The position numbers and the translations under genes were made by a program. A stretch of DNA of 64,000 nucleotides from Minisyncoccota bacterium (GTDB lineage: Bacteria; Patescibacteriota; Minisyncoccia; Phycocordibacterales; UBA2100), in assembly GCA_022842645.1 (NCBI GenBank), contig JALHPE010000001.1, positions 7,711 to 71,710 of the forward strand, in the 5' to 3' direction. Positions within the stretch are counted from its first letter, which is position 1, and each line of letters opens with the position of its first letter. A model generated the notes under the pieces. That model did no database searches, was not told the DNA's origin, and saw only the letters and a program-made list of their open reading frames with translations. This document shows positions 3,845 to 25,632 of this stretch, piece after piece.

Positions 3845-4093
3845 GTAGGCACGATACTAACAGAACATAGGCCTTTTGCACACTTCAAGTTGTTTCCGAT
3901 GGTAAATCCATTTTTCCGGGATGAGAAGTAAGCGCCTCTAGAATGGCGCGACGCAACTTCTCTGCCCCGTCTTCAGGACGGGGTAAATGTTCAAAAGATT
4001 CTTTCACCTTTTAAGCATACCACGTCCTTTAATCCGCCCCCTCCCATACCCTCTTCATAAGTGCCAAAAAGTGTTGTAGTATGCGCCGCGTAA

Positions 4094-4165
4094 GGCCTCA
4101 TCGTCTAACGGCTAGGACAGCGCCTTTTCAAGGCGTTAATCGGGGTTCGATTCCCCGTGAGGTCA
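4094..4165 (+). tRNA. tRNA-Glu (anticodon TTC)
   Basis: Acceptor GGCCTCA/TGAGGTC, anticodon stem GCGCC/GGCGT with loop TTTTCAA, T-arm CGGGG-TTCGATT-CCCCG, 72 nt. Confidence 0.85.
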
Positions 4166-5870
4166 AAGACAGAGATTTATCAACCTTGAATTGTTCAGAA
4201 AGCCTGAAAATAGGCTGTAATTTTGGTGTTCCATTAAGGATTTCGTGGTAGGTTGGTGTTTTCTCAAAAAACAACGACATTAAAGCCCTTCGAGACTGTA
4301 AATCATCAGCCTTTTCGAGTATTTCAGCAGGGTGTTCCATTACGCGCTTTGCGTAACGAATAAAGCCCTTGATTCCTTTTTCGTTTACCTCAATCGTGCC
4401 ACGCTTACTCTCCGCATCTTTGATCTGTACGTCGAGCGCTTCAATCTCTCTTTCAAGCATCTTTCTCGTAATGATGCTTTCTGCAACTTCAAACGCTTTT
4501 AGTTTCTGGGCTTGCTCTGCCTTAAGTTCGCTTACACTCCTGCTGATTGCCGATGACATTTCAACAATGTCTTTCTCTTTCGAGCGATATTTGCGTACCA
4601 ACTTCTCTTCAAGTTTCTCCAAAAAACCCTTTTCAAAGCGAAGATTATCAATGTAGTTTTTAACACACTTCTCAAGATCTGCTTTTCTAACTCTGAATCC
4701 AGAGTGTGCTCGCTTTCCGTTTTTCACTCCTCCACAATGATACGCGGGAAAATGCTTACCTGACTTTCCGCGAGGTGCACTACCCAAAAGTTCCGAGGTG
4801 CAGAATGGGCAAGTAATCACTTTCCACGGATAGTCTGGATTGTTACGTAAACGTTTGGTTTTACCCCACGGAGAATAGTTATAAAGTACCTCCACGCTCC
4901 CATCCCCATGCTCCTTAACGAAAACTTTGCCGCGATTTGCTCGATTAAAAAGATCAACCGAAACCAGTCCATTGAATTCTCGTAGTCGTACTGGTTGATG
5001 CTTTGTCCACGACTCACAAACAATGCCTGCATATTCTGTTTGCGTAATACGTCTTTGTAATTGTTTAACAGTAAGTAATTTGCCGCCCTTCTTTCCAACT
5101 ACGGTCGGATGCTCTTTATTACTCCGATCCCAGCGTCGAGTCGTTAAGGTGCGATATCCCATTGCGTTTATGGTTTTAACAATCTCATTGTCATCAACGC
5201 CAGCCGCGCGCATCTCAAATATTTTTACCCAGTAATGTGATCGCTCTGGATCAGTCGCGCGAATCACACGGTCTTTTCCATCATAGAAAAATCGCTTATT
5301 AATCATTCCGTCTGGCGCACGACGAGTTGCCCATCCTTCTCTGGCATAGCGAATTTGTGCACCAATCATTCTCGTTAAAATCTGTCTTACTTCTTGCTCA
5401 CCATTATAGGCTGTTATCATTTCAGCCGATTCACTTGGGTAGTATTCACTCCACTTATATTTAACCCCAAGGTGTTCAAGTGTGTTACGTTCAGGCTGAA
5501 TTATTCCATATACGTCGCACATTTGAACACCTAATTCAGCAAGTTCGCGCTTCATCCTCTCGTAAACCACATAACCTGCCCTTGTTGCACGATCAATACA
5601 TTTGATAATGTATTTTTTAATGGGCTTATCAGTGTGTATTCGACTACGGATGTACATTTTTACTTCCTCAAAATCTTGTCTTTCTTTAGTGGTTCCGGAA
5701 TGCGGTTTCTTGAAAACCTCTGCAACGATCCAACCACTACGTTCGGCAAACTGTCTTCCAAGTTTTTCCTGATCATCCAAACTGTCGCCCTTAAGTTGGG
5801 AGGGGTCGCTTACACGGCAATCAATTACGCAGTATGTAGGTCTTTCAGTCATACTCCTACATTTTAACAA
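4128..5870 (-). CDS. Large serine recombinase (phage-type integrase)
   Basis: N-terminal resolvase catalytic domain (YCVIDCRVSDPSQ...DQ with the catalytic Ser, ...IDRATRAG), Cys-rich zinc-ribbon (CPFCTSELLG...HFPAYHCGG) and a C-terminal coiled-coil. The 3' end overlaps tRNA-Glu. Confidence 0.85.
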   Translation of the reverse strand: MLKCRSMTERPTYCVIDCRVSDPSQLKGDSLDDQEKLGRQFAERSGWIVAEVFKKPHSGTTKERQDFEEVKMYIRSRIHTDKPIKKYIIKCIDRATRAGYVVYERMKRELAELGVQMCDVYGIIQPERNTLEHLGVKYKWSEYYPSESAEMITAYNGEQEVRQILTRMIGAQIRYAREGWATRRAPDGMINKRFFYDGKDRVIRATDPERSHYWVKIFEMRAAGVDDNEIVKTINAMGYRTLTTRRWDRSNKEHPTVVGKKGGKLLTVKQLQRRITQTEYAGIVCESWTKHQPVRLREFNGLVSVDLFNRANRGKVFVKEHGDGSVEVLYNYSPWGKTKRLRNNPDYPWKVITCPFCTSELLGSAPRGKSGKHFPAYHCGGVKNGKRAHSGFRVRKADLEKCVKNYIDNLRFEKGFLEKLEEKLVRKYRSKEKDIVEMSSAISRSVSELKAEQAQKLKAFEVAESIITRKMLEREIEALDVQIKDAESKRGTIEVNEKGIKGFIRYAKRVMEHPAEILEKADDLQSRRALMSLFFEKTPTYHEILNGTPKLQPIFRLSEQFKVDKSLSLTSRGIEPRLTP

Positions 5871-6113
5871 CTTTTCTTCTTGTAGAAACTATATTCTTCT
5901 CACGAATCCACATATCTAACAGCGTATCTGCAAGATGATCTAACAATATATCCACATTAACATTTAAGTTGTTATCTGACGGATTAGATTTTGTAGCGGT
6001 CAACTGTTGGAGGAAGTTATCTTGACCCGAACTCATAAAGTTCAGGTTCGTGTGTTATGACTCGTTGCGCAAACGAATGTACAAGTTTCTAAAATTCAGT
6101 AAAAAATAAAAGT

Positions 6114-6169
6114 CGGCTATATAGCCGGATAATTTTTTTACGTTTTTTATGAAATCGGCTATATAGCCG
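6114..6169. repeat. Two copies of the perfect 14-bp palindrome cggctatatagccg (6114-6127 and 6156-6169), each followed by a T-run
   Basis: Read directly. They lie in the integrase upstream region of the element. Either tandem terminators or operator sites. Confidence 0.5.
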
Positions 6170-6484
6170 ACTTTTAACTTATCCCCAACATATGGACTTA
6201 TTCATGACAACACAAAGCGGAACCTTAACCGTCAAGAGTTGTTGTGTTGAGCGTACGAAGCAAGTAAACTGTCTACGTTCGCCCTCAAAGCGAACATTTC
6301 AAAACAAAGACCTAAACCCTCGCTTCGGCGGTGGCATGGTCTAAAAGTCGGATGGAGCGTAGGAACCCCGTCATGTGGTTGCTTCATCCGCCGTATCGGG
6401 AAACCGGTGCGTTCGCGTAAGCGAAGACCCGTGGCGGGTTTTGTGTTTTCTAAAATTCCGCCTTTACAAGAAAAGTGAACACAT

Positions 6485-6613
6485 ATGGACTACGATGATC
6501 TGACAAACGAAGTGGAAGAACTTAAAGCGCAAATCTATAAACTGCGTAGTGAATTAAACTTCTTTGCCACATGTTTTGGATTTGTAGTGCTTATGATCCT
6601 GATATGGAAATAA
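6485..6613 (+). CDS. Small hypothetical protein (43 aa) with a C-terminal transmembrane helix
   Basis: ATG..TAA ORF (MDYDDLTNEVEELKAQIYKLRSELNFFATCFGFVVLMILIWK) below the ORF-track cutoff and inside the mobile element. No homology support. Confidence 0.25.
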   Translation: MDYDDLTNEVEELKAQIYKLRSELNFFATCFGFVVLMILIWK

Positions 6614-6623
6614 CTAAACTCCT

Positions 6624-6866
6624 ATGCAATATCTAACCCTCACAATACTCGCAGTCGCTTTCTTTGCAGGGCAAGCGTTTTTAACTCTCACTCTCCAACA
6701 AAAAGAAAGTAACGAGGAGTTTGCAAAACACGTTCAAGAAAAGATCTTTGATGATTGTTTCGACTACTACGCGGCAACCTCACGAGAAAGAGGTATTGAT
6801 AAAACCACAATTCAGACATGCGTAGACAAGACGAGCGATTGGATGAAGTCTATAAACAATCTGTAA
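6624..6866 (+). CDS. Hypothetical small secreted protein (80 aa, N-terminal signal-like helix)
   Basis: ORF-track ORF; hydrophobic N-terminus LTLTILAVAFFAGQAF. Confidence 0.4.
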   Translation: MQYLTLTILAVAFFAGQAFLTLTLQQKESNEEFAKHVQEKIFDDCFDYYAATSRERGIDKTTIQTCVDKTSDWMKSINNL

Positions 6867-6889
6867 ATTTATTCCGCGCGGAATGAGAA

Positions 6890-7276
6890 TTAAGCAAACT
6901 CGGCTTTATCCTCCTCGGCAGGTTCCAACATTTTTGACTGCAACATATCAAGCCGCTCCTGTGCGAGAGTGAGTTCAAACCCTCGCGCATTCCTCCCAAA
7001 TTCGTCTGGACAGCGTTTTTCCAAGTATCGCATGGCAAGATGCGGGTCTCGCTCTAAATTGTCTACAACGGTCTTTTTTGCCTTTAAAATGGGGTTCAGT
7101 TTCCACCTCGCTTTTTGCTCCACAAAGTCTGGGGTTGCCGTCTGATAGTTATACAGCGTTTGTGGTGCAATTTTGGCTGAATTACAGGCTTCTTCGTCTG
7201 TTGCCCCTATCTGAAAAGCGTCTTCGAGTTTTTGGAGTACGCGAGGAGTGATTTTTTTGGGTCTGCCGAGTGTCAT
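6890..7276 (-). CDS. Phage-like HTH DNA-binding protein (terminase-small-subunit-like N-terminus)
   Basis: N-terminus MTLGRPKKITPRVLQKLEDAFQIGATDEEAC resembles the GRPxKYTPE HTH of phage TerS/Nu1-like proteins. Acidic C-terminus. Confidence 0.4.
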   Translation of the reverse strand: MTLGRPKKITPRVLQKLEDAFQIGATDEEACNSAKIAPQTLYNYQTATPDFVEQKARWKLNPILKAKKTVVDNLERDPHLAMRYLEKRCPDEFGRNARGFELTLAQERLDMLQSKMLEPAEEDKAEFA

Positions 7277-7311
7277 ATCACTATTTTACCGGAAATAAAC
7301 ACGCTGATACA

Positions 7312-8598
7312 ATGCTGTCCAATCTACCCACCATGTCTGGATTCCTGAAAACACGAGAAGTCTTTGAAGAAACGTATCGCGTTGACGATTTGTTGGATTT
7401 TTCGAGTGAAATCAATCGTCTTGATTCGGTAATTCAGCAAGCACCTTACTCGGCGTTGGTTGGATACGTGGGACGTTTTGGCTCTGGAAAGAGCACGGCT
7501 ATTTACCAATTGCGTAAACAGTATGAGCAAGCAAAAAAATCTAAGTGGTTTGAGTTTGATGCATGGAAATATCCCGAACGTCGTGATCTGTGGGAGGGCT
7601 TTGTACTCGATATCGCAGATCAAATGGGGAGCAGAAAGAGAGTGAAGAAGCAGATTGACGGCGATACGAAAACATCGAAAACAGTTGGTGCGATCTCTGA
7701 AATCGCACAAGGGCTTGCCGCTTTCACTGGTCTTTCCTACCTCGTCAGCAAATTTGCACACCTATTCGATAAACAACCCATTGAGCGCGTTTTTGAGTTG
7801 CAAGAGATCCTTGTTGCGATGTTCGGCGCAGTAAAAGAAAAAGACATTTTCATTGTGGTCGAGGATATAGATCGATCAGGTGATGCGGGGCAATATTTCC
7901 TGGAAACACTGCGGCAATTTATTAAGAATAACCTCGCTGAAAAGCGCATCGTTATTCTCGTGCCTATCGGCTCAGAAATTTACGACAAAGAAGACGATCT
8001 TCACGACTCCTTGCAAAAAGTACTCGATTACCAGGTGCATTTTGAACCTCGGTCGGTGAAATACTCAAAGTTCCTGGATTATTTTGATGAAAGTACGTTT
8101 CCTGCAACTCACACCGTGCAAGCGAACGTGCAGGATAAATCTCTTTGGCGAGAGCATATTGAAGACTGGTTTGCTCTTGCGGCTCGTAATGGTCTAAACA
8201 TACGAAAGATTAAATCCGCTGTTCGTGAAGCAAACGCCGCCTTTATTGATCTCCGAGCAAAAGAATTTAAACCCGATCCTCGAATTGTACTCGCAATCAC
8301 TCTGCTTAATTATGTTTACACAGAAGGAAAGAAACGATGGGTAACGCGACTTGAAACCAAGCATGATATTACGAGTAATTGTCCTATTTATAATTATCTG
8401 CAAGTTGTCGCGCGTAACCAGCGACTGTCAGAATACCCAGGGCACTGGAGACCAGGAGCAACGCATTTTGTTGAGGATCGAGAGTTAATCCTTCCGGCGT
8501 ATGTGACTGATTCTAGAGCGCCGAACGGAGAGCCGACAGGAAGATTTTGGCTCTCGGATTTTTACTTAATTCCCTTTGGTAGAAATACCCAAGGATAG
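7312..8598 (+). CDS. KAP-family P-loop NTPase
   Basis: Walker A GRFGSGKST followed by the KAP-diagnostic FEFDAWKYPERRDLWEGF, and Walker B IVVEDIDR. The ORF track starts at a GTG at 7270, overlapping the upstream gene; the ATG at 7312 is preferred. Confidence 0.75.
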   Translation: MLSNLPTMSGFLKTREVFEETYRVDDLLDFSSEINRLDSVIQQAPYSALVGYVGRFGSGKSTAIYQLRKQYEQAKKSKWFEFDAWKYPERRDLWEGFVLDIADQMGSRKRVKKQIDGDTKTSKTVGAISEIAQGLAAFTGLSYLVSKFAHLFDKQPIERVFELQEILVAMFGAVKEKDIFIVVEDIDRSGDAGQYFLETLRQFIKNNLAEKRIVILVPIGSEIYDKEDDLHDSLQKVLDYQVHFEPRSVKYSKFLDYFDESTFPATHTVQANVQDKSLWREHIEDWFALAARNGLNIRKIKSAVREANAAFIDLRAKEFKPDPRIVLAITLLNYVYTEGKKRWVTRLETKHDITSNCPIYNYLQVVARNQRLSEYPGHWRPGATHFVEDRELILPAYVTDSRAPNGEPTGRFWLSDFYLIPFGRNTQG

Positions 8599-8794
8599 TA
8601 GATAATATAGTTCGATAGATCATTGGGTACATAAAATTCAGTGCTTCTATTGCTCAAATACCTTGTTTTATGTGACAAATTCAGTACCCGATGATCCAAT
8701 ACGTACAAGGCTAAATACCTGATTCCAGTGCAAAACAGTATTTTCTATAGTGTTCCAGTCAAAGTACAATGGGCTCAAATCGAACGAAGTGAGG

Positions 8795-8811
8795 TTTGAC
8801 CTCACGGGGAA
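8795..8811. repeat. Inverted exact 17-nt copy of the tRNA-Glu 3' end, within hairpin gtgaggtttgacctcac
   Basis: tttgacctcacggggaa is the reverse complement of ttccccgtgaggtcaaa at 4151-4167. Candidate distal boundary of the integrated element. Confidence 0.5.
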
Positions 8812-8846
8812 GAAAGGGGTCGGGAAAACATTCTGTTTTCCCGTGG
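8812..8846. repeat. Hairpin motif GAAAGGGGTCGGGAAAAC-N4-GTTTTCCCGTG (second copy at 23754-23786)
   Basis: Near-identical 33-35 nt hairpins at two unrelated loci. Confidence 0.5.
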
Positions 8847-8865
8847 AGGAAGGATTGGGAAAACC

Positions 8866-9645
8866 GTGGGTTTCCCAGAACCCCGTTGTGGTCAAAATTC
8901 ATGCCGATGCCTTAACGCCTGGTACAATGTCTCCATGCGAGAAAAGATACAAGTACCGTCGTCTGCTGAATCCTCCGAAGTCACGGTACCGCTGGCAGAG
9001 GACAAGATTCTTCACCGACTTCACCAATGCACAAACCCCGGCGCAAATTGCTCGCCCGAAGATGAGGAAGAACTACAGAAAGACCTTGAACGCTGTGAGG
9101 TTTTCGAGATGTACAATGCCTATATCGAGAGTCGTGTACCAACCCTCCCTCTCTTGGGGAAGAACATCACTGACTTAATCGAAAGAATCCCCAATAAACT
9201 ACGCAATGACCCAGAAACAATTTCTATTGTTAATTATTTGAAGGGGCGACACGCGTCGATTGGTCACGATCTCCGAGCTTATGTTACGCTTGTTATTAGA
9301 TTTGTAACGCTTGAGCAATCAACTCTGAGATTCAGAGATTATGAAAAATACATCGATCAAATAAAAAAAGTTGACGCTGATCGCCGAAGAATGCACGACA
9401 ACCTCTTAGCTTCCTTGGATATGCTCCGCCAAAAAATGGAAGAGGTGTATGATTTGGGATTGTGCGAGAAGAATGATTTTTATGTTTGGTCGCCAGGTGA
9501 GACACGTGAGATTCCCATAAACGCAGTGCCGGTTTTCGCCTCCACAGCAATTGCGAATCGAGACCTTATTAAAAATTGGGCGCTTGCCGCGGACTTTGCA
9601 GAACATTTTGAGAAACTATCGCAACTGCTGGCAGAAAAAAAATAG
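8866..9645 (+). CDS. Hypothetical protein (259 aa); alternative start at 8935 (MREKIQ...)
   Basis: Long ORF with no recognisable motif; followed by a hairpin terminator. Confidence 0.45.
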   Translation: MGFPEPRCGQNSCRCLNAWYNVSMREKIQVPSSAESSEVTVPLAEDKILHRLHQCTNPGANCSPEDEEELQKDLERCEVFEMYNAYIESRVPTLPLLGKNITDLIERIPNKLRNDPETISIVNYLKGRHASIGHDLRAYVTLVIRFVTLEQSTLRFRDYEKYIDQIKKVDADRRRMHDNLLASLDMLRQKMEEVYDLGLCEKNDFYVWSPGETREIPINAVPVFASTAIANRDLIKNWALAADFAEHFEKLSQLLAEKK

Positions 9646-9668
9646 GCATCCTGTGGTTACAGGACGCC
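9645..9668. terminator. Hairpin ggcatcctgt-ggtt-acaggacgcc between convergent genes
   Basis: Stem-loop directly after the stop of the 8866-9645 ORF, preceded by an A-run. Confidence 0.45.
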
Positions 9669-9955
9669 TACTGATTGGCTCGATTTGCCTCTGCTTTTAC
9701 GACAATACAGTAGCAGAGCTTGAGAGCAAACGCCGCATACGCAAGATCGTCATCAGGTAGTGCCAGCGCACTGCGGTGTGATCGCAAAAGATCATAGAGA
9801 TCCTTGCAACGAACATCCGTCCGAACTATTTCTGCTTGCTCATGAGGGTTGTATCCATGCAAAGCTTCACAAGAAGGCAAAACAAGACTGAGAATGTGCG
9901 TTGCTTCTTGCGGATGCGTTTGTGTAAATTTTTTCCAACGACGGAGCTGGCTCAT
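9668..9955 (-). CDS. Hypothetical protein (95 aa)
   Basis: ORF only. Confidence 0.3.
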   Translation of the reverse strand: MSQLRRWKKFTQTHPQEATHILSLVLPSCEALHGYNPHEQAEIVRTDVRCKDLYDLLRSHRSALALPDDDLAYAAFALKLCYCIVVKAEANRANQ

Positions 9956-9999
9956 GTGCCACCTTCCTTTCCTACTGCACTATAACACAGATGTACAAT

Positions 10000-10620
10000 T
10001 TATGCAAAACTTTTTTCGCTCCCTACTGAAATCACCCCCTCCCGCAACACCTGAATATTTCCCTCACTCACATCCACAATCGTCGAAGGCAATCGCTCCG
10101 GAAGCTCACCCGCATCAATCACAAGGTCGATGAGCTTGGCTCGCGCACCCAGTTGCGCGAGTATTTTCTCCGGAGAGCGGTCTGGTTGCATGCCCGCAAG
10201 ATTGGCGCTCGTCGTCGTATAGGGTCGCCCAAACGCACGCGCCAGCTCGAGACAAAATTGAGTGTCTGGCATGCGGAATCCGAATTCATCCCTTCCCTCG
10301 CACATTGCAATAACCGCATCGGCACGCTTTCGGAGAATGAGCGTGAGCGGCCCCGGCATATACGCACTCGCGAGCGCAAGCGCCATCTCGTTCACTTCCC
10401 CATACTCGGCCGCCATGTGTAAATCGGCGACAATAGCGTGTATAGGCTTTCCCTCTTCTCGTCCCTTAATTTCTCGCACTTTTGCAAGTGCCTCATTCGA
10501 AAGCGCATCTGCACCCAGGCCATACAGAGTGTCTGTGGGATACAAAACAACACCTCCACTACGAAGAGCTGTGACACTCTTCGTGATTGCTTCCGGACTC
10601 TTTATGGAGATGATTTCCAT
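10000..10620 (-). CDS. tsaC: L-threonylcarbamoyladenylate synthase (TsaC/YrdC/Sua5 family)
   Basis: YrdC fold signature LYPTDTLYGLGADA. The 206-aa length fits the single-domain TsaC. Confidence 0.85.
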   Translation of the reverse strand: MEIISIKSPEAITKSVTALRSGGVVLYPTDTLYGLGADALSNEALAKVREIKGREEGKPIHAIVADLHMAAEYGEVNEMALALASAYMPGPLTLILRKRADAVIAMCEGRDEFGFRMPDTQFCLELARAFGRPYTTTSANLAGMQPDRSPEKILAQLGARAKLIDLVIDAGELPERLPSTIVDVSEGNIQVLREGVISVGSEKSFA

Positions 10621-21916: not shown

Positions 21917-23713
21917 TTACTCATCTCCTCCGCGCACCACCTTCAGAAACACCTCGTGAGGGATATCAACCTTCCCGCGTGCAAGCATTTTCTTCTTGCC
22001 TTTCTTTTGCTTTTCAAGAAGCTTCATTTTACGTGTGATGTCGCCGCCGTAGAGGTACCCGGTTACGTCTTTGCGCATCGCTGACTTCCTGCGCGATGCG
22101 ACGATCTTTCCATCGCATTTTGCTTGAATTTTGAGCTCGAAGAGCTGTTTCGGAAGAAGCTTTTCGAGCCGCTCAACAAGCGCTTCGGCTTCGTGGCCAA
22201 CGCGTCGTTTTGAGACGATGCGCGCAAATGCAGGCACGAGCTCGTCGGCAACAAGAATGTCCAGTCGAACCACATCCGCACTCCTCAGTCCCAGCAACTC
22301 ATATGAGAGCGATGCAAAGCCTGAAGAGACGCTTTTTAGGCGATCAAAGAAGCCTCGCATAAGCTCGCGCAGCGGCATCTCAGCTGCGAGCTTTACCTTG
22401 CCGTCGGGAAGTGTTTCTGTCTCCCCCACTACCGCTTCATGATCGAATAGAATCTGCGAAATACCGCCGAGATAACTCGGGGGTGTAATGATATCAATTG
22501 CCGCCCATGGCTCGCGCACTGATTTAAGCGTGCCGTCATCAGGAAAACGTGCAGGATTATAAATTTCCTCCACACGCCCGTCTTGGAGTGTAATCTCGTA
22601 CACAGTTGTGGGACTTGTGACCACAAGCGGTAAATCAAATTCGCGCTTCAACCGCTCGATAACAATCTCGAGATGAAGCATCCCGAGAAATCCACACCGA
22701 AATCCTTTCCCCATGACACCAGAGGACTCTTCTTCGTACGAAAGTGAAGAATCGGAGAGGCGCAGACGCTCAAGCGCCTGGCGGAGCTGTACTAAATCGT
22801 CTTGCGACTCTGGGTACACAGACGCCCAAATAACAGGCGCTGGAGCCCTGTAACCGCCGAGCGGAGCGCCACTCATGCGCGCAGAGAGCACTGTGTCGCC
22901 CACAGAGGCAATACCCGGCTTTTTAATGCCAGTCACGATGTAGCCGATTTCCCCTTCCCTAAGCTCATCGCGCGGGGTTTCGTCGGGCGTGAGGACTCCC
23001 ACTTCAAGTGCCGTAAACGAGGCGTTTGCTGCTGCAAGCTTGAGTGAATCTCCCTTTGAAACGCGCCCGCCAAAGAGTCGACAATAAATGATGACGCCGC
23101 GATGGTCGGAATATGAAAAGTCATAAACGAGTGCCTGCATTTTCTCTCCCGAGCTTCGGGGCGGAGGAATACGCTCAACAACCGCGTTCAAGAGTTCTGT
23201 AACACCAACACCTGTCTTACCTGAAGTAAGAATCACGTCGCGCTCGTCACATCCAAGCAGCATAGTGAGTTCTGTCTTCACGTCATCAACACGTGCGTGT
23301 GGTGCGTCTATTTTATTTACTACGGGGATGATCACCCTCTTCAATTCGCGCGCCGTCGAGAGAACCGAAAGTGTCTGCGCCTCAACCCCCTGTGTGGCGT
23401 CCACGAGGAGCACAACCCCTTCAACGGCCGAGAGTGCACGTGAGACTTCGTAGGCAAAATCAACGTGGCCGGGAGTATCGATCAGATTTAGTGTGTAGTT
23501 TGTAGACTGTAGTTTGTAGTTCATCCGGACGGGAGCCATTTTAATGGTGATGCCACGCTCGCGCTCGAGATCCATACGATCCAAGACCTGTTCTTTCATG
23601 GCTCGCTTTTCGATCGTGCCGGTGAGCTCGAGCATGCGATCGGCCAGGGTGGATTTCCCGTGGTCAATGTGCGCGATTATCGAAAAGTTTCTAATGTGTG
23701 AAGACATATTCAT
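21917..23713 (-). CDS. lepA: Elongation factor 4 (LepA); likely true start at the second ATG (23707)
   Basis: IRNFSIIAHIDHGKST G1 motif, DTPGHVDF, and the LepA-specific C-terminal domain ending KKGKKKML..; 598 aa. Confidence 0.95.
   Translation of the reverse strand: MNMSSHIRNFSIIAHIDHGKSTLADRMLELTGTIEKRAMKEQVLDRMDLERERGITIKMAPVRMNYKLQSTNYTLNLIDTPGHVDFAYEVSRALSAVEGVVLLVDATQGVEAQTLSVLSTARELKRVIIPVVNKIDAPHARVDDVKTELTMLLGCDERDVILTSGKTGVGVTELLNAVVERIPPPRSSGEKMQALVYDFSYSDHRGVIIYCRLFGGRVSKGDSLKLAAANASFTALEVGVLTPDETPRDELREGEIGYIVTGIKKPGIASVGDTVLSARMSGAPLGGYRAPAPVIWASVYPESQDDLVQLRQALERLRLSDSSLSYEEESSGVMGKGFRCGFLGMLHLEIVIERLKREFDLPLVVTSPTTVYEITLQDGRVEEIYNPARFPDDGTLKSVREPWAAIDIITPPSYLGGISQILFDHEAVVGETETLPDGKVKLAAEMPLRELMRGFFDRLKSVSSGFASLSYELLGLRSADVVRLDILVADELVPAFARIVSKRRVGHEAEALVERLEKLLPKQLFELKIQAKCDGKIVASRRKSAMRKDVTGYLYGGDITRKMKLLEKQKKGKKKMLARGKVDIPHEVFLKVVRGGDE
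23488..23524 (-). repeat. Half-copy of the heptad-array element inside the lepA coding sequence (encodes MNYKLQSTNYTLN)
   Basis: In the lepA sense strand, ctacaaa ctacagt ctacaaa ctacaca ctaaat. Its first 19 nt match the right arm of copy 1 (1744-1762) exactly. In plus orientation, 24 nt (agtgtgtagtttgtagactgtagt) match the left arm of copy 3 (62156-62179) exactly. Confidence 0.6.
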
Positions 23714-23719
23714 CGAAGA

Positions 23720-23905
23720 CTAAAATGAGAGAATTTGAGGGCGCACATTGTAGGAAAGGGGTCGGGAAAACTCTAGTTTTCCCGTGTCGGAGAGCAGGTC
23801 GGCGAGCGAAGCGATGCCGACCGTTGAGAACCGAGGGTTCTCAAGGAGCGACCCAGACGCGACAATGGGTGCGATTATGGAGAAATTACGGATGTGAGAC
23901 GACAT
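23720..23905 (-). pseudogene. Degenerate, synonymously recoded duplicate of the lepA 5' end (61-aa ORF, MSSHIRNFSIIAP...)
   Basis: The first 12 codons encode the same residues as lepA (MSSHIRNFSIIA) but differ at 8 wobble positions. Homology is then lost. Confidence 0.5.
23754..23786. repeat. Second copy of hairpin motif GAAAGGGGTCGGGAAAAC-N3-GTTTTCCCGTG
   Basis: Compare 8812-8846. Confidence 0.5.
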
Positions 23906-23916
23906 GCCGTCTTATC

Positions 23917-25632
23917 CTACGTTGATTGCTCCCCCGAAGCAATCGGTTCCACATCACGCCAGATACGACGTCGAAGCGCGAGTGCATTCTCGGCGTATTC
24001 CCTGCTTCCAAGAAAATGGTAGGCGAGCGCAGCAGCAGCAACACCCACACCGCCCGCGAGAAGCGCCTTAAAGAGCACCGAGGCAAGAGTCGAGAGCAGT
24101 GTGATGTCTCCTATCACTTGCAGTGTTGCGTATGCAGCACATCCGGCTACAAACGCAGCAGTGAGCGCATGCCAAAATGAACGTTTAATCTGAGAAACGA
24201 ATCCGCCAAAATGCCATTCAATTGAAACCACGAGTAGAAAGGCGCCCATAATGGAAGCCACTGAAAACGCAAACGCGAGTACCACAACGTCGGTTCCCAC
24301 TAGGTTATCAATGCGCAGCAGTGCTTCAAGAAAGCTTGCGACGTCTGCATTTTGCACACTGCGTAGATACGTGTGCGCAAGAATAAGAGTGGTGAGGGCT
24401 GTCACGCCAGATATGGCAAGTGGAATAAGCGTTCTCCCCGCTGCATACCATGCACGAATGAGAAGAAGAGAAACACCTTGGCTGGCGAGAGAAAGCGAGA
24501 AGAGTGCGAGTGCTGCAGCGGTAAGGCGCGTGTCGGTCCAATCAAACGCGCCCGAACCAAGCGCAGCGCGTACAATATGCGCGCGAAGCACGATGACGAG
24601 CGCGAGCGCAGGGAGCGACCAGAAAAACATTTGACGAACGGCGAGCGCCGCATGCGCCAAAAACGCGTGTGTTGCACCGCGCGCATGCGCCTCGGCAAGG
24701 AGTGGGAATGCGGCTGTTGCATAGCTTGCGCCAATCACAGAAAGCGGAACTCCCTGCAGATTGTAGGCAAACATAAATACCGCGATTGAGCCCGCGGGGA
24801 GTGCCGCAGCAAGCGAGAGAAGGCCAAAGAACGCAAACTGACCAAAGGAGAGCGCCAGTGCGCGTGGAAGTGAAATGCGAACAGTAGCCAAAAAGCTGCG
24901 CCATTCAGGAAGTGATGCCATCTCTCTACCAAGACCTTCGCGCAAGAGTGGTGGCAATTGAATACCTAAATGAAGTACTGCACCAATCACAACGCCATAG
25001 GCAAGTCCCATAAGTCCCTGCGATGGAACTAACACTAACGCACCGTAAATGATGCCGAGATTATAGACAATCGGCGAGAGTGCATAGAGTGCGTATCGAT
25101 GTCTAAATTGTGTGAGGCCCGCAGCAATATTTGAAAAGCCCAGAAGCACCGCTTGTATCAGGAGTATACGTGTGAGGAGCACCAACTCTTCCTGTGCATA
25201 GGAAAGCGCGGGGAAAAATGTTGCAAGAATTGAGGGAGCAAACACTGCAGCACCACCCGCAACAAGTGCAACCAATGCACCAAAACACACAATGAGGCCG
25301 TCTATGTACCGCCGTTGCGCCGCCTCATCACGACGTGCAAGTTCTGGTATGAGCACGTACGCAGAAACCAGCGCCCCTACGCCGATAAACACGAGATCCG
25401 GTACGCGGAACGCTGCGTAATAGACGTCGAGCTCGGCTCCTGCGCCAAAGAGATGTGCGAGCACACGGTCACGCACGAGCGCGAGGAGCGACGAGGCGAG
25501 AGATGAAAGTGCGAGAATATACGCGGCCGCCTGAAGCCCGCGCACCTCAAGAGAAAGATAGGACAAAGCCCATCCCGCTCCGCTGTAAGTCTTTTCAAGC
25601 GTCGTGCGCCCGCTTTTAAGAAAACGAATCAT
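23917..25632 (-). CDS. murJ: Lipid II flippase MurJ (MviN)
   Basis: Polytopic membrane protein of 571 aa. N-terminal motif LVRDRVLAHLFGAGAELDVYYAAFRVP matches the MurJ RD..A..FG.G...DAF..AFRIP signature. Confidence 0.85.
   Translation of the reverse strand: MIRFLKSGRTTLEKTYSGAGWALSYLSLEVRGLQAAAYILALSSLASSLLALVRDRVLAHLFGAGAELDVYYAAFRVPDLVFIGVGALVSAYVLIPELARRDEAAQRRYIDGLIVCFGALVALVAGGAAVFAPSILATFFPALSYAQEELVLLTRILLIQAVLLGFSNIAAGLTQFRHRYALYALSPIVYNLGIIYGALVLVPSQGLMGLAYGVVIGAVLHLGIQLPPLLREGLGREMASLPEWRSFLATVRISLPRALALSFGQFAFFGLLSLAAALPAGSIAVFMFAYNLQGVPLSVIGASYATAAFPLLAEAHARGATHAFLAHAALAVRQMFFWSLPALALVIVLRAHIVRAALGSGAFDWTDTRLTAAALALFSLSLASQGVSLLLIRAWYAAGRTLIPLAISGVTALTTLILAHTYLRSVQNADVASFLEALLRIDNLVGTDVVVLAFAFSVASIMGAFLLVVSIEWHFGGFVSQIKRSFWHALTAAFVAGCAAYATLQVIGDITLLSTLASVLFKALLAGGVGVAAAALAYHFLGSREYAENALALRRRIWRDVEPIASGEQST

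What the first reader, a model, noticed from the sequence alone, without database searches (positions are those of the whole stretch)
23714..23916. Synonymously recoded duplicate of the lepA N-terminus immediately upstream of lepA
A 61-codon ORF starts MSSHIRNFSIIA, identical to LepA residues 1-12, but 8 of the 12 codons use different synonymous codons (TCT/TCG, AGA/CGT and so on). The next residues differ by single-nucleotide changes (H to P, D to V). A second weaker echo (STVGIASLADLL versus STLADRML) follows. Amino-acid identity with saturated synonymous divergence is not what a recent tandem duplication produces. It implies an old or horizontally acquired fragment kept under selection, or a leader peptide mimicking the LepA N-terminus. 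Between the copies lie three perfect hairpins, including the GAAAGGGGTCGGGAAAAC motif.
Basis: seen in the sequence. Interest (0 to 1): 0.55.

Follow-up and report, generated by a model that had tools for sequence, protein, structure and literature searches.

The report
Hairpin element duplicates gene starts
The small gene in front of lepA is the left half of a duplicated gene start that flanks a small hairpin-rich repeat element lodged in lepA; the same element sits in many genes of these ultra-small bacteria and appears undescribed.

Summary
On the minus strand a 61-codon ORF (23905-23720) begins MSSHIRNFSIIA, identical to LepA residues 1-12. Eight of the 12 codons differ, and every difference is synonymous.

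It is not specific to lepA. The ORF is one copy of a recurrent cassette in Patescibacteria, with four parts:
- a partial copy of a gene end (U);
- a 117-nt four-hairpin repeat element (E);
- a short inverted copy of the target site ("anti");
- the complete gene (D).

I retrieved 113 distinct E copies. The cassette occurs at the same P-loop codon of lepA, fusA and typA. It also occurs in dnaX, murD, rnhA and glycosyltransferase genes, and at the 3' ends of tRNA genes.

In three loci U and D are nucleotide-identical, and in one of them the identity runs 22 nt upstream of the ATG. The cassette therefore starts as a plain DNA duplication.

The upstream ORF has no stop in 28 of 31 loci and ends within 17 nt of the gene's start in 26 of 31. 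The anti segment base-pairs with codons 12-15 of the real gene, with clear covariation, and so encloses its start codon. Translational coupling is the likely working mechanism.

U evolves with the same synonymous to non-synonymous ratio as the functional copy. I could not explain this. I found no Rfam family and no paper describing the element.

The parts
23917..25632 (-). murJ-like gene; its stop codon lies 11 nt upstream of the small ORF's ATG
   Evidence: ORF list. The orthologous gene carries Pfam MurJ in L010, L147 and L148.
23720..23905 (-). Upstream ORF of 61 codons plus TAG. It consists of U plus translated element E plus a tail, and ends 12 nt before lepA's ATG.
   Evidence: Ten homologues were found in relatives. 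The frame is kept open in 28 of 31 cassettes.
23870..23905 (-). U: the left copy of lepA codons 1-12. Amino acids are identical and 8 of 12 codons are synonymously different.
23753..23869 (-). Repeat element E, 117 nt. It runs from the left terminus CCCATTGTCGCG to the conserved tail GACCCCTTTCC.
   Evidence: One copy in the window. 113 distinct copies retrieved elsewhere. It is the most conserved stretch of the 8-kb locus against L010: 0.89 identity versus 0.55-0.75 in the genes. No Rfam hit.
23848..23860 (-). Hairpin Ha. Its sequence varies between loci and it is imperfect in this window.
   Evidence: Compensating stems read by eye in alignment A2. Not scored formally.
23824..23844 (-). Hairpin H1: TTGAGAACC-CTC-GGTTCTCAA
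   Evidence: I5. 99% of cells paired, 3 pairs with double changes.
23797..23822 (-). Hairpin H2: GGTCGGC...GCCGACC. Its length varies between loci; in the three loci compared the length differed by 15 nt, a multiple of three.
   Evidence: Covariation in the short form.
23763..23784 (-). Hairpin H3: CGGGAAAACT-AG-AGTTTTCCCG, with an invariant core
   Evidence: I3. Invariant in 22 of 22 sequences; part of that invariance is ascertainment, because H3 was the search pattern.
23741..23750 (-). 'anti' segment CAATGTGCGC. It starts 3 nt after E and is the reverse complement of lepA codons 12-15.
   Evidence: I2. Shuffle p = 0.007 for this locus. Covariation across 22 loci. Present in the minimum-free-energy fold.
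23708..23740 (-). Spacer between anti and lepA's ATG. It contains the upstream ORF's stop (23720-23722). No Shine-Dalgarno-like motif is visible.
23672..23707 (-). D: lepA codons 1-12, the right copy of the duplication
23665..23674 (-). j: GCGCACATTG in lepA (codons 12-15, Ala-His-Ile-Asp of the P-loop). It is the pairing partner of anti and spans the insertion point.
21917..23707 (-). lepA (EF4), 596 aa from the MSS start
   Evidence: Closest named relatives are Candidatus Kaiserbacteria.

Best explanation
The 61-codon ORF is the left half of a gene-end duplication. The duplication flanks a 117-nt, four-hairpin repeat element (E) lodged at codon 13 of lepA in a Kaiserbacteria-like genome.

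**The element family.** E is a small, non-autonomous, probably mobile element spread through Patescibacteria. Wherever it sits near a gene end the layout is the same:
1. a truncated copy of that end (U);
2. E;
3. immediately after E, a 9-23-nt inverted copy of the intact target site (anti);
4. a short spacer;
5. the complete gene (D).

The duplication regenerates an intact gene, so the element can sit inside essential genes.

**Proposed working mechanism in the mRNA.**
- U supplies the start codon of an ORF that is kept open through E.
- That ORF stops 12 nt before lepA's ATG.
- Anti pairs with lepA codons 12-15, so lepA's start lies inside a closed loop.
- Ribosomes translating the upstream ORF must melt this helix and terminate at lepA's start.
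- lepA is therefore most likely expressed by termination-reinitiation coupling.

**The 'synonymous recoding'.** It is the long-term divergence of the two copies of the duplication. Both copies show the signature of protein-level selection.

**Shown versus inferred.**
- Shown: the family, the duplications, the inverted copy and its covariation, the open frame and stop placement, and the substitution pattern.
- Inferred: mobility and its mechanism, translational coupling, and any reason for selection on U, which remains open.
For: **Family.**
- Homologues of the small ORF lie upstream of lepA in some genomes and upstream of fusA in others. Each starts with the N-terminus of its own downstream gene.
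- Species genomes gave 13 loci. Together these gave 113 distinct copies.
- 31 clear U-E-D cassettes were found: fusA 10, typA 11, lepA 4, glycosyltransferase 3, dnaX 2, murD 1. rnhA adds one more.

**tRNA contexts.**
- 24 copies lie 25-75 nt from the 3' end of a tRNA gene on the opposite strand.
- They have a direct copy of the tRNA 3' end on the left of E and an inverted copy on the right.
- Overall, 40 of 89 copies have a flanking direct duplication, against 2 of 89 in a maximum-of-20-shuffles control.

**Origin as a DNA duplication.**
- U and D are identical in L016, L088 and L131.
- In L088 the duplication is 60 nt with 1 mismatch and includes 22 nt of 5' flank.

**Anti.**
- It is a perfect complement of at least 9 nt to the D junction in 22 of 31 cassettes.
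- In 21 of those 22 it starts 2-3 nt after E.
- Median length of the perfect match is 11 nt to D and 6 nt to U.
- In alignment A2, 7 of 15 anti:j pairs change on both sides (for example CG 11, UA 11). The whole structure is 92% paired, and 0 of 500 shuffles reach it.
- The helix and hairpins H1-H3 appear in the minimum-free-energy fold of the window leader, z = -4.07.

**Translation.**
- The U frame carries 4 stops in 31 loci, against 81 and 62 in the other frames.
- The stop lies within 17 nt of D's start in 26 of 31 loci, with 9 overlaps of 4 or 8 nt.
- Downstream of hairpin H2, E is read in three different frames.

**Patchy distribution on a congruent MurJ/LepA tree.** ((window E+, L146 E-), (L147 E-, L010 E+)), (L148 E+, L149 duplication without E).
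Against: - No transposase, recombinase or reverse transcriptase was found next to any copy. In the lepA cassettes where neighbours were read they are ordinary housekeeping genes.
- E has no terminal inverted repeats.
- The duplications vary from about 15 to 60 nt. No known bacterial MITE mechanism fits.
- The extreme sequence conservation of E is partly ascertainment, because the searches required the H3 core.
- No expression data exist, so coupling rests on comparative evidence only.
- A plain insertion model does not explain two things:
  - why U keeps the amino-acid sequence (U syn/nonsyn 183/73 versus D 182.5/73.5);
  - why anti keeps tracking synonymous changes in D in cassettes whose U and D are saturated.
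- About a third of the cassettes lack a convincing anti segment.
Confidence: 0.68

Rival explanations
1. **Homing cassette with its own replacement gene start.** The mobile unit would be E plus anti plus spacer plus the first 12 codons of lepA, carried in from another lineage. U would be the displaced native start, which has not yet decayed. The synonymous differences would then be ordinary divergence between two orthologues. This resembles genomic islands that insert into the end of a tRNA or dusA gene and bring a replacement end.
For: - U versus D of the same locus is as different as U versus D of other species. The fraction of same-amino-acid codons that differ is 0.71 versus 0.68 in fusA.
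- The element-free orthologue L147 matches U at 22 of 24 positions and D at 16 of 24.
- The Asn codon is AAT in 5 of 6 U copies and in 3 of 3 element-free genes, but AAC in 6 of 6 D copies (hand count).
- The first 9 D codons are 25 of 27 identical between the window and L010, while the lepA body is about 72% identical.
- E+ and E- genomes are interleaved on the tree.
- Anti and j would both travel inside such a unit.
Against: - In fusA and typA, D copies are no more similar to each other than U copies are.
- Identity shows no step at the junction between the window and L010.
- The closest relative, L146, is equally distant from U and from D.
- Parsimony on the lepA tree favours one old insertion with losses.
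- Element-free genes resembling U are also expected if E is lost by U x D recombination.
- A separate cassette would be needed for every target gene.
Confidence: 0.2
2. **E is a resident cis-regulatory RNA, not a mobile element.** It would be a conserved structured leader or terminator module recruited in front of translation-factor genes. The duplicated start and the anti helix would have evolved as a regulatory switch. For example, a monitoring uORF in the style of SecM-SecA that senses elongation.
For: - Very high sequence conservation of E.
- Covarying helix that encloses the start codon.
- Maintained uORF.
- Recurrent mutation of the His codon in U that weakens the alternative anti:U helix.
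- The E-encoded peptide is proline-rich in all three frames.
Against: - The same element with the same flanking direct and inverted copies lies antisense beside 24 tRNA genes, where no mRNA logic applies.
- It also lies after the cca gene and next to unrelated genes.
- Young, nucleotide-identical duplications exist.
- Sister genomes differ in presence and absence.
Confidence: 0.1
3. **A leader peptide that specifically mimics the LepA N-terminus**. The peptide would act as a decoy or sensor for something that recognises LepA.
For: The amino-acid sequence of U is conserved, and partly co-varies with D at variable positions: MSSH/MSSH in the window and MSSN/MSSN in L010.
Against: - The copied N-terminus is that of whatever gene lies downstream: EF-G, TypA, DnaX, MurD, RNase H or a glycosyltransferase.
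- At tRNA genes the copied piece is RNA-coding.
- U carries His>Pro or His>Gln in the P-loop.
Confidence: 0.03
4. **A simple pseudogene remnant, or an assembly artefact.** The remnant would come from a second lepA, or from a tandem duplication with no further meaning.
For: Some U copies are decaying: L092 and L117 in fusA, and the murD and glycosyltransferase copies have pN of 0.10-0.22.
Against: - There is no second lepA-like start in the window.
- The cassette is conserved in many independent assemblies.
- The frame is kept open.
- pN/pS = 0.087.
Confidence: 0.02

Closest known systems
Rickettsia palindromic elements (RPEs) and other intragenic MITE-like repeats (ERIC, BOX)
   Same: These are small (about 100-150 bp), hairpin-rich, multi-copy, non-autonomous elements. 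They tolerate being translated and are found inside protein-coding genes (description in PMC10969869).
   Different: RPEs are read through as an in-frame insertion within one protein. Here the host gene is split: a truncated copy ends as a separate small ORF and a complete gene is regenerated downstream. E has no terminal inverted repeats. The flanking duplication is 15-60 nt and variable. An inverted copy of the target is written next to the element.
Integrative elements that insert into a gene end and carry a replacement end (tRNA, tmRNA and dusA-type islands; from my own knowledge)
   Same: Direct repeats of the gene end flank the insert. The gene stays intact. The displaced fragment can differ from the functional copy by silent changes. 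The tRNA T-loop region is a favoured site.
   Different: Those elements are kilobases long, encode a site-specific recombinase and have one fixed target. E is 117 nt, sits in many different genes, and has no recombinase nearby.
Translationally coupled upstream ORFs with a helix masking the downstream start (for example SecM-SecA, erm leaders, phage MS2 coat-replicase; from my own knowledge)
   Same: An upstream ORF ends at or near the next start. A covarying helix encloses the downstream initiation region, so the helix must be opened by the translating ribosome.
   Different: The upstream ORF here is built from a copy of the regulated gene's own first codons plus a repeat element. No arrest motif or sensed signal is known. 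The same module occurs at unrelated genes.
Insertion sequences that make long, variable target duplications (IS1634 and IS1549 types; from my own knowledge)
   Same: They make direct target duplications of tens of bases and of variable length.
   Different: Those are autonomous IS elements with terminal inverted repeats and a transposase. No inverted target copy is known for them.

Membership tests
Rfam RNA families (any) | Match to a curated covariance model | tested here: not met
   0 matches at E<=10 for window 23400-24100. Only tRNAs were found in seven E-bearing loci at gathering score.
MITE | Terminal inverted repeats | tested here: not met
   The inverted-repeat search of 23600-24000 finds only the internal hairpins and anti:j. 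The E termini CCCATTGTCGCG and GACCCCTTTCC are not complementary.
MITE | Short target-site duplication of fixed length | tested here: not met
   The duplications range from about 15 to 60 nt and differ between loci.
MITE | Small, multi-copy, no coding capacity of its own, found in many genomic contexts | tested here: met
   113 distinct copies retrieved; two copies occur in one genome assembly (L019 and L022).
Rickettsia palindromic element type | Element is translated in frame as part of a single host protein | tested here: not met
   The ORF through E stops before the regenerated gene. In 22 of 31 loci its frame differs from the gene's frame.
Rickettsia palindromic element type | Element sequence stays free of stop codons when inside genes | tested here: met
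   28 of 31 cassettes have no stop in the U frame, against 4 and 1 in the other frames.
REP / REPIN elements | Extragenic palindromes associated with a RAYT transposase | not tested
   Whole genomes were not available. No such gene was seen in the flanks read.
uORF-coupled or masked-start leaders | Upstream ORF terminating at or near the downstream start | tested here: met
   The gap is 12 nt in the window. 26 of 31 cassettes lie within 17 nt, 9 of them with overlaps of 4 or 8 nt.
uORF-coupled or masked-start leaders | Conserved helix enclosing the downstream initiation region | tested here: met
   In anti:j, 7 of 15 pairs change on both sides. 0 of 500 shuffles reach the whole structure. The helix is in the minimum-free-energy fold.
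uORF-coupled or masked-start leaders | Downstream translation depends on uORF translation; response to a signal | not testable with these tools
   This needs reporter fusions or ribosome profiling.
Integrative island with a replacement gene end | Site-specific recombinase and cargo between the direct repeats | tested here: not met
   Only 162 nt lie between the two repeat copies, 198 nt start to start. The neighbours are a TPR protein, MurJ, LepA and DivIC.
Diversity-generating retroelement (TR/VR pair) | Differences confined to adenines of the template copy | tested here: not met
   The nine differences are of mixed type: T/G, A/T, T/C, A/C, C/T, G/C and G/A.
tRNA or tmRNA-like gene | Recognised by ARAGORN | tested here: not met
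   E itself is not called in seven E-bearing loci scanned whole, or in 113 sub-loci. Only neighbouring true tRNAs are called.

The most novel reading that the evidence does not exclude
E would be a new kind of non-autonomous mobile element of ultra-small bacteria that invades the first or last few dozen bases of essential genes: the P-loop codons of translational GTPases and the T-arm of tRNA genes.

It would neutralise its own insertion in three ways:
1. It duplicates the gene end, so a whole gene is rebuilt.
2. It writes an inverted copy of the intact target next to itself. This points to a target-templated insertion step (target-primed or template-switching) not known for bacterial small repeats.
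3. It is translated through, so the native start still drives the gene by coupling.

The redundant start copy would stay under protein-level selection because cassettes are repeatedly lost and regained, or for a reason still unknown.
Probability: 0.3. Interest if true: 0.85.

Novelty: new variant of a known kind. Interest (0 to 1): 0.7.

Why it matters
If this reading is right, it matters in four ways.
- It shows how a selfish or regulatory repeat can live inside essential, highly conserved genes without harming them, in genomes that are among the smallest and least understood.
- It gives a concrete, testable example of gene expression rewired through a duplicated start plus a masking helix.
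- It offers a sequence signature (direct plus inverted target copies) that may point to an insertion mechanism not described in bacteria.
- It explains a class of conserved 'hypothetical' small ORFs annotated upstream of fusA, typA and lepA in Patescibacteria genomes. It also warns annotators that these are duplicated gene starts, not independent genes.

Tried and rejected
- **Known RNA family.** Rfam gave nothing and ARAGORN does not call E.
- **DGR template/variable repeat pair.** Rejected, because the differences are not adenine-specific.
- **Duplication delimited by the start codon** (leaderless-mRNA or reverse-transcription idea). Rejected. In L088 the identity runs 22 nt upstream of the ATG, and hairpin plus T-run motifs sit just upstream of several U starts.
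- **Fixed-length target duplication.** Rejected.
- **Terminal inverted repeats.** None found.
- **Excision, splicing or ribosomal bypass joining U to the gene body.**
  - Unlikely, because U carries His>Pro or His>Gln in the P-loop in 20 of 22 GTPase cassettes.
  - In addition, D's own first codons are conserved.
- **Neutral decay of U, refreshed by gene conversion.** Conversion does occur.
  - L086 and L131 change in concert.
  - L010 shares its first 14 nt.
  - L148 shares the 3' part.
  - But conversion cannot give pS of about 1 together with pN of about 0.05.
- **Within-locus selection for maximal nucleotide dissimilarity.** There is only a weak excess: 0.71-0.87 of same-amino-acid codons differ, against 0.54-0.74 in the comparison classes, with small numbers.
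- **Orientation of E relative to flanking ORFs.** A crude ORF-based census was uninformative.
- **Promoter and terminator consensus scan of the window region.** Nothing found.
- **Sliding identity between related cassettes,** to find a step at the junction. Too noisy.
- **Literature.** Four full-text searches found no description of this element.

Full report
**What is in the window**

All features lie on the minus strand, in this order:
- a murJ-like gene (25632-23917);
- 11 nt of spacer;
- a 61-codon ORF (23905-23720);
- 12 nt of spacer;
- lepA. The ATG for MSSH is at 23707 and an earlier in-frame ATG lies at 23713.

The ORF and LepA share residues 1-12 (MSSHIRNFSIIA).
- Eight of the 12 codons differ, by nine nucleotide changes, and all are silent.
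- Codon 13 is CAC>CCC (His>Pro) and codon 15 is GAC>GTC (Asp>Val). After that the similarity stops.
- The repeat finder sees a 43-nt direct repeat at 77% identity, spaced 198 nt apart.
- It also sees two perfect hairpins, and a 10-nt inverted repeat between 23741-23750 and lepA codons 12-15 at 23665-23674.
- A third hairpin, with 7-bp arms, lies at 23797-23822.

Only about 7.7 of the 36 sites are synonymous (derived). Nine random substitutions would all be silent about once in a million.

**It is not a lepA peculiarity**

A protein search with the 61-aa ORF returned ten homologues at 64-81% identity. Looking up their contigs gave the key result.
- Some homologues lie between murJ and lepA, as here (L010, L011).
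- Others lie directly upstream of fusA, the gene for EF-G (L002-L009).

In every locus the small ORF begins with the N-terminus of its own downstream gene:

| Locus | Gene | Small ORF starts | Downstream gene starts |
|---|---|---|---|
| L010 | lepA | MSSNIRNFSIIT | MSSNIRNFSIIA |
| L003 | fusA | MNRDYPLEKVRNFGIVA | MKRDYPLEKVRNFGIVA |
| L005 | fusA | MSRDYPLEKVRNFGIVA | MSRDYPLEKVRNFGIVA |
| L008 | fusA | MARDYPLEKVRNFGIIA | MARDYPLEKVRNFGIIA |

After that start, all the small ORFs share one nearly invariant nucleotide core.

A scan of species-representative genomes gave 13 loci. Together these gave 113 distinct copies. Rfam has no matching family. Four literature searches found nothing on this element.

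**Anatomy of the cassette**

I call the core E. It spans window 23753-23869 and has these parts (alignment A2):
- a left terminus, (C)CCRTCGTCGCG. It belongs to the element, because it is also present at an rnhA locus;
- a hairpin of variable sequence (Ha);
- hairpin H1;
- hairpin H2, of variable length;
- hairpin H3 with the tail GACCCCTTTC.

Thirty-one copies have the layout U-E-D, where U is a copy of the first 9-19 codons of the gene D that follows. The counts are fusA 10, typA 11, lepA 4, glycosyltransferase 3, dnaX 2 and murD 1. An rnhA locus adds one more.

Twenty-four further copies lie 25-75 nt from the 3' end of a tRNA gene on the opposite strand. There the left flank of E is a direct copy of the tRNA 3' end, sometimes including its terminator.

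Across all 89 copies with enough flank, 40 have a direct duplication. The control, a maximum over 20 shuffles, reaches the same score in 2 of 89.

**The inverted target copy**

A short segment follows E directly. It is the reverse complement of the intact target, spanning the insertion point.
- In the window it is CAATGTGCGC, pairing with GCGCACATTG.
- In 22 of 31 protein-gene cassettes the perfect complement is at least 9 nt. In 21 of those 22 it starts 2-3 nt after E. This includes 17 nt at a glycosyltransferase gene and 16 nt at murD.
- The median length of the perfect match is 11 nt to D but only 6 nt to U.
- Beside tRNA genes, 14 of the 15 loci examined carry a copy of the T-loop, T-stem and acceptor 3' strand, up to 23 nt, at the same offset.

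Because it spans the junction and sits at a fixed offset in unrelated targets, it was most likely written at insertion from the target itself. That is an inference.

**It starts as a DNA duplication and is patchily distributed**

- In typA loci L016, L088 and L131, U and D are nucleotide-identical. L086 and dnaX locus L081 differ by one base.
- In L088 the identity covers 60 nt with one mismatch and includes 22 nt upstream of the ATG. U there still has the His codon.
- L086 and L131 differ from each other at the same two synonymous sites in both copies. This means concerted change: gene conversion or re-duplication.

The window's closest named relatives are Candidatus Kaiserbacteria. For lepA, the MurJ and LepA identities give the same tree: ((window, L146), (L147, L010)), (L148, L149).
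- E is present in the window, L010 and L148.
- E is absent in L146 and L147.
- In L149 the duplicated start is present, but with different small hairpins and no E.

**Evidence that the upstream ORF is translated and coupled**

- From U's start to 20 nt before D, the U frame contains 4 stop codons in 31 loci, and 28 loci have none.
- The other two frames contain 81 and 62 stops, and only 4 and 1 loci are stop-free.
- Downstream of hairpin H2, E is read in three different frames in different loci (SDTGKLEFSRPLS, HGKTTVFPTPF, RENYSFPDPF). In the three loci compared, hairpin H2 differs in length by 15 nt, a multiple of three.
- The stop lies within 17 nt of D's start in 26 of 31 loci. Nine are overlaps of 4 or 8 nt.
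- No Shine-Dalgarno-like motif precedes D in the loci I read.

**Evidence for the masking helix**

On the 22-sequence alignment of GTPase cassettes:
- The structure H1 + H2 + H3 + anti:j is 92% paired.
- Twelve pairs change on both sides.
- No shuffle out of 500 reaches the observed values, and slid controls drop to 34-45% paired.
- Within anti:j, 7 of 15 pairs covary (for example CG 11 / UA 11, and CG 7 / AU 4 / UA 4). The covarying positions are the wobble positions of codons 12-15. Anti therefore tracks silent changes in the gene.

The alternative helix, anti with U, is only 68% paired. It has systematic mismatches at the mutated His codon.

The window leader folds into H1, H2, H3 and the anti:j helix, with the lepA start in the enclosed loop. 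The z-score is -4.07.

A ribosome reading the upstream ORF passes through anti and terminates 12 nt before the ATG. Termination-reinitiation coupling is therefore the most economical reading. This is inferred, not shown.

**The recoding**

Pooled over 31 cassettes (412 codons), U versus D shows:
- 211 synonymous and 70 non-synonymous differences;
- pS 0.82, pN 0.071, ratio 0.087;
- differences by codon position of 52, 19 and 210.

The distribution is bimodal. pS is about 0 in five loci and about 1.0-1.5 in most GTPase loci.

Within a locus, U and D are as different at silent positions as copies from different species (0.71 versus 0.68 in fusA).

Between cassettes that share homologous linkers and spacers, U accumulates 183 synonymous and 73 non-synonymous differences. 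D accumulates 182.5 and 73.5. U thus evolves like a working N-terminus, although its P-loop His is destroyed.

- A neutral remnant would show mostly non-synonymous change.
- Gene conversion would erase the silent differences.
- So either U is under peptide-level selection for an unknown reason, or one of the two copies is repeatedly supplied from diverged functional genes (the homing-cassette rival).

Hints for the rival, counted by hand:
- The element-free L147 matches U at 22 of 24 positions and D at 16 of 24.
- The Asn codon is AAT in U and in element-free genes, but AAC in all six D copies.

The same pattern is expected if E is lost by U x D recombination. The fusA and typA data do not show D copies clustering. 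I leave this open.

**Verdict**

- The 'mimic' idea is not supported.
- The 'kept under selection' idea is supported, and it generalises.
- The 'second echo' (STVGIASLADLL) is hairpin H2 of the element. It is also present at fusA and typA.

The finding is one member of an apparently undescribed family of small structured repeats. They insert near gene ends with a gene-regenerating duplication, an inverted target copy and a translated, coupled upstream ORF.

The nearest known things are Rickettsia palindromic elements (PMC10969869), islands that bring a replacement gene end, and masked-start coupled leaders. Each differs in defining features, which are listed in the membership table.

Noticed in passing
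L149:2370-2500: In another Kaiserbacteria genome, lepA also has a duplicated start: MSAHIRNFSIIAH..., then MNIRNFSIIAH. The intervening sequence holds two different small hairpins (CCCCGTTAGAG...CTCTAACGGGG and GGTTGGAAAGCTTCGCTTCCAACGG) and no E.
   Followed up: partly
L022:3180-3260: leuS has a duplicated N-terminus: MRSYDHKKIEKKW, then MKKYDHKSIERKW. The two copies are separated by a different element of about 38 nt (TCCTTCGCTAAAGCTTCGGACGG...). A similar motif occurs in L020. An E copy lies about 100 nt further upstream.
   Followed up: no
L018:2738-2830, L019:2548-2650, L020:1600-1710: In three species E sits directly after the stop codon of a gene whose N-terminus looks like a CCA-adding enzyme (my reading of the N-terminal sequence; not scanned against Pfam). 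That gene ends ...KKHHVS and converges on a gene that looks like xth. A long non-coding stretch of 450-650 nt follows.
   Followed up: partly
L135:13430-13620, L127 (minus strand, around 3275): Beside tRNA genes, the left and right copies of the duplication each keep a terminator-like hairpin, but with different stem sequences. Structure is kept and sequence changed. This is an RNA-level parallel to the synonymous recoding of the protein copies.
   Followed up: no
window 23763-23784 and 23858-23869: In one frame hairpin H3 reads CAC GGG AAA ACT = His-Gly-Lys-Thr. The E left terminus CCCATCGTCGCG resembles CACATCGATGCG (Ala-His-Ile-Asp-Ala of EF-G). E may itself descend from a GTPase P-loop fragment. 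The tail ACCCCUUUC also loosely resembles the 3' end of 16S rRNA.
   Followed up: no
L146:1749-2494: In the closest relative (LepA 93% identical), a pyrF (OMP decarboxylase) gene split into two ORFs lies between murJ and lepA. Neither E nor U is present.
   Followed up: no
window 4001-10000: GC content drops to 0.43-0.45, against 0.49-0.54 in most of the rest of the window. This may be acquired DNA.
   Followed up: no
L068:6154-6454; L099:195-1825: Two E copies lie 271 nt apart in L068. In L099 two copies in opposite orientation flank a small tRNA cluster. tRNA-context copies form a subfamily with a different H1 (GGGAAACC...GGTTTTCCC) and no H2.
   Followed up: partly
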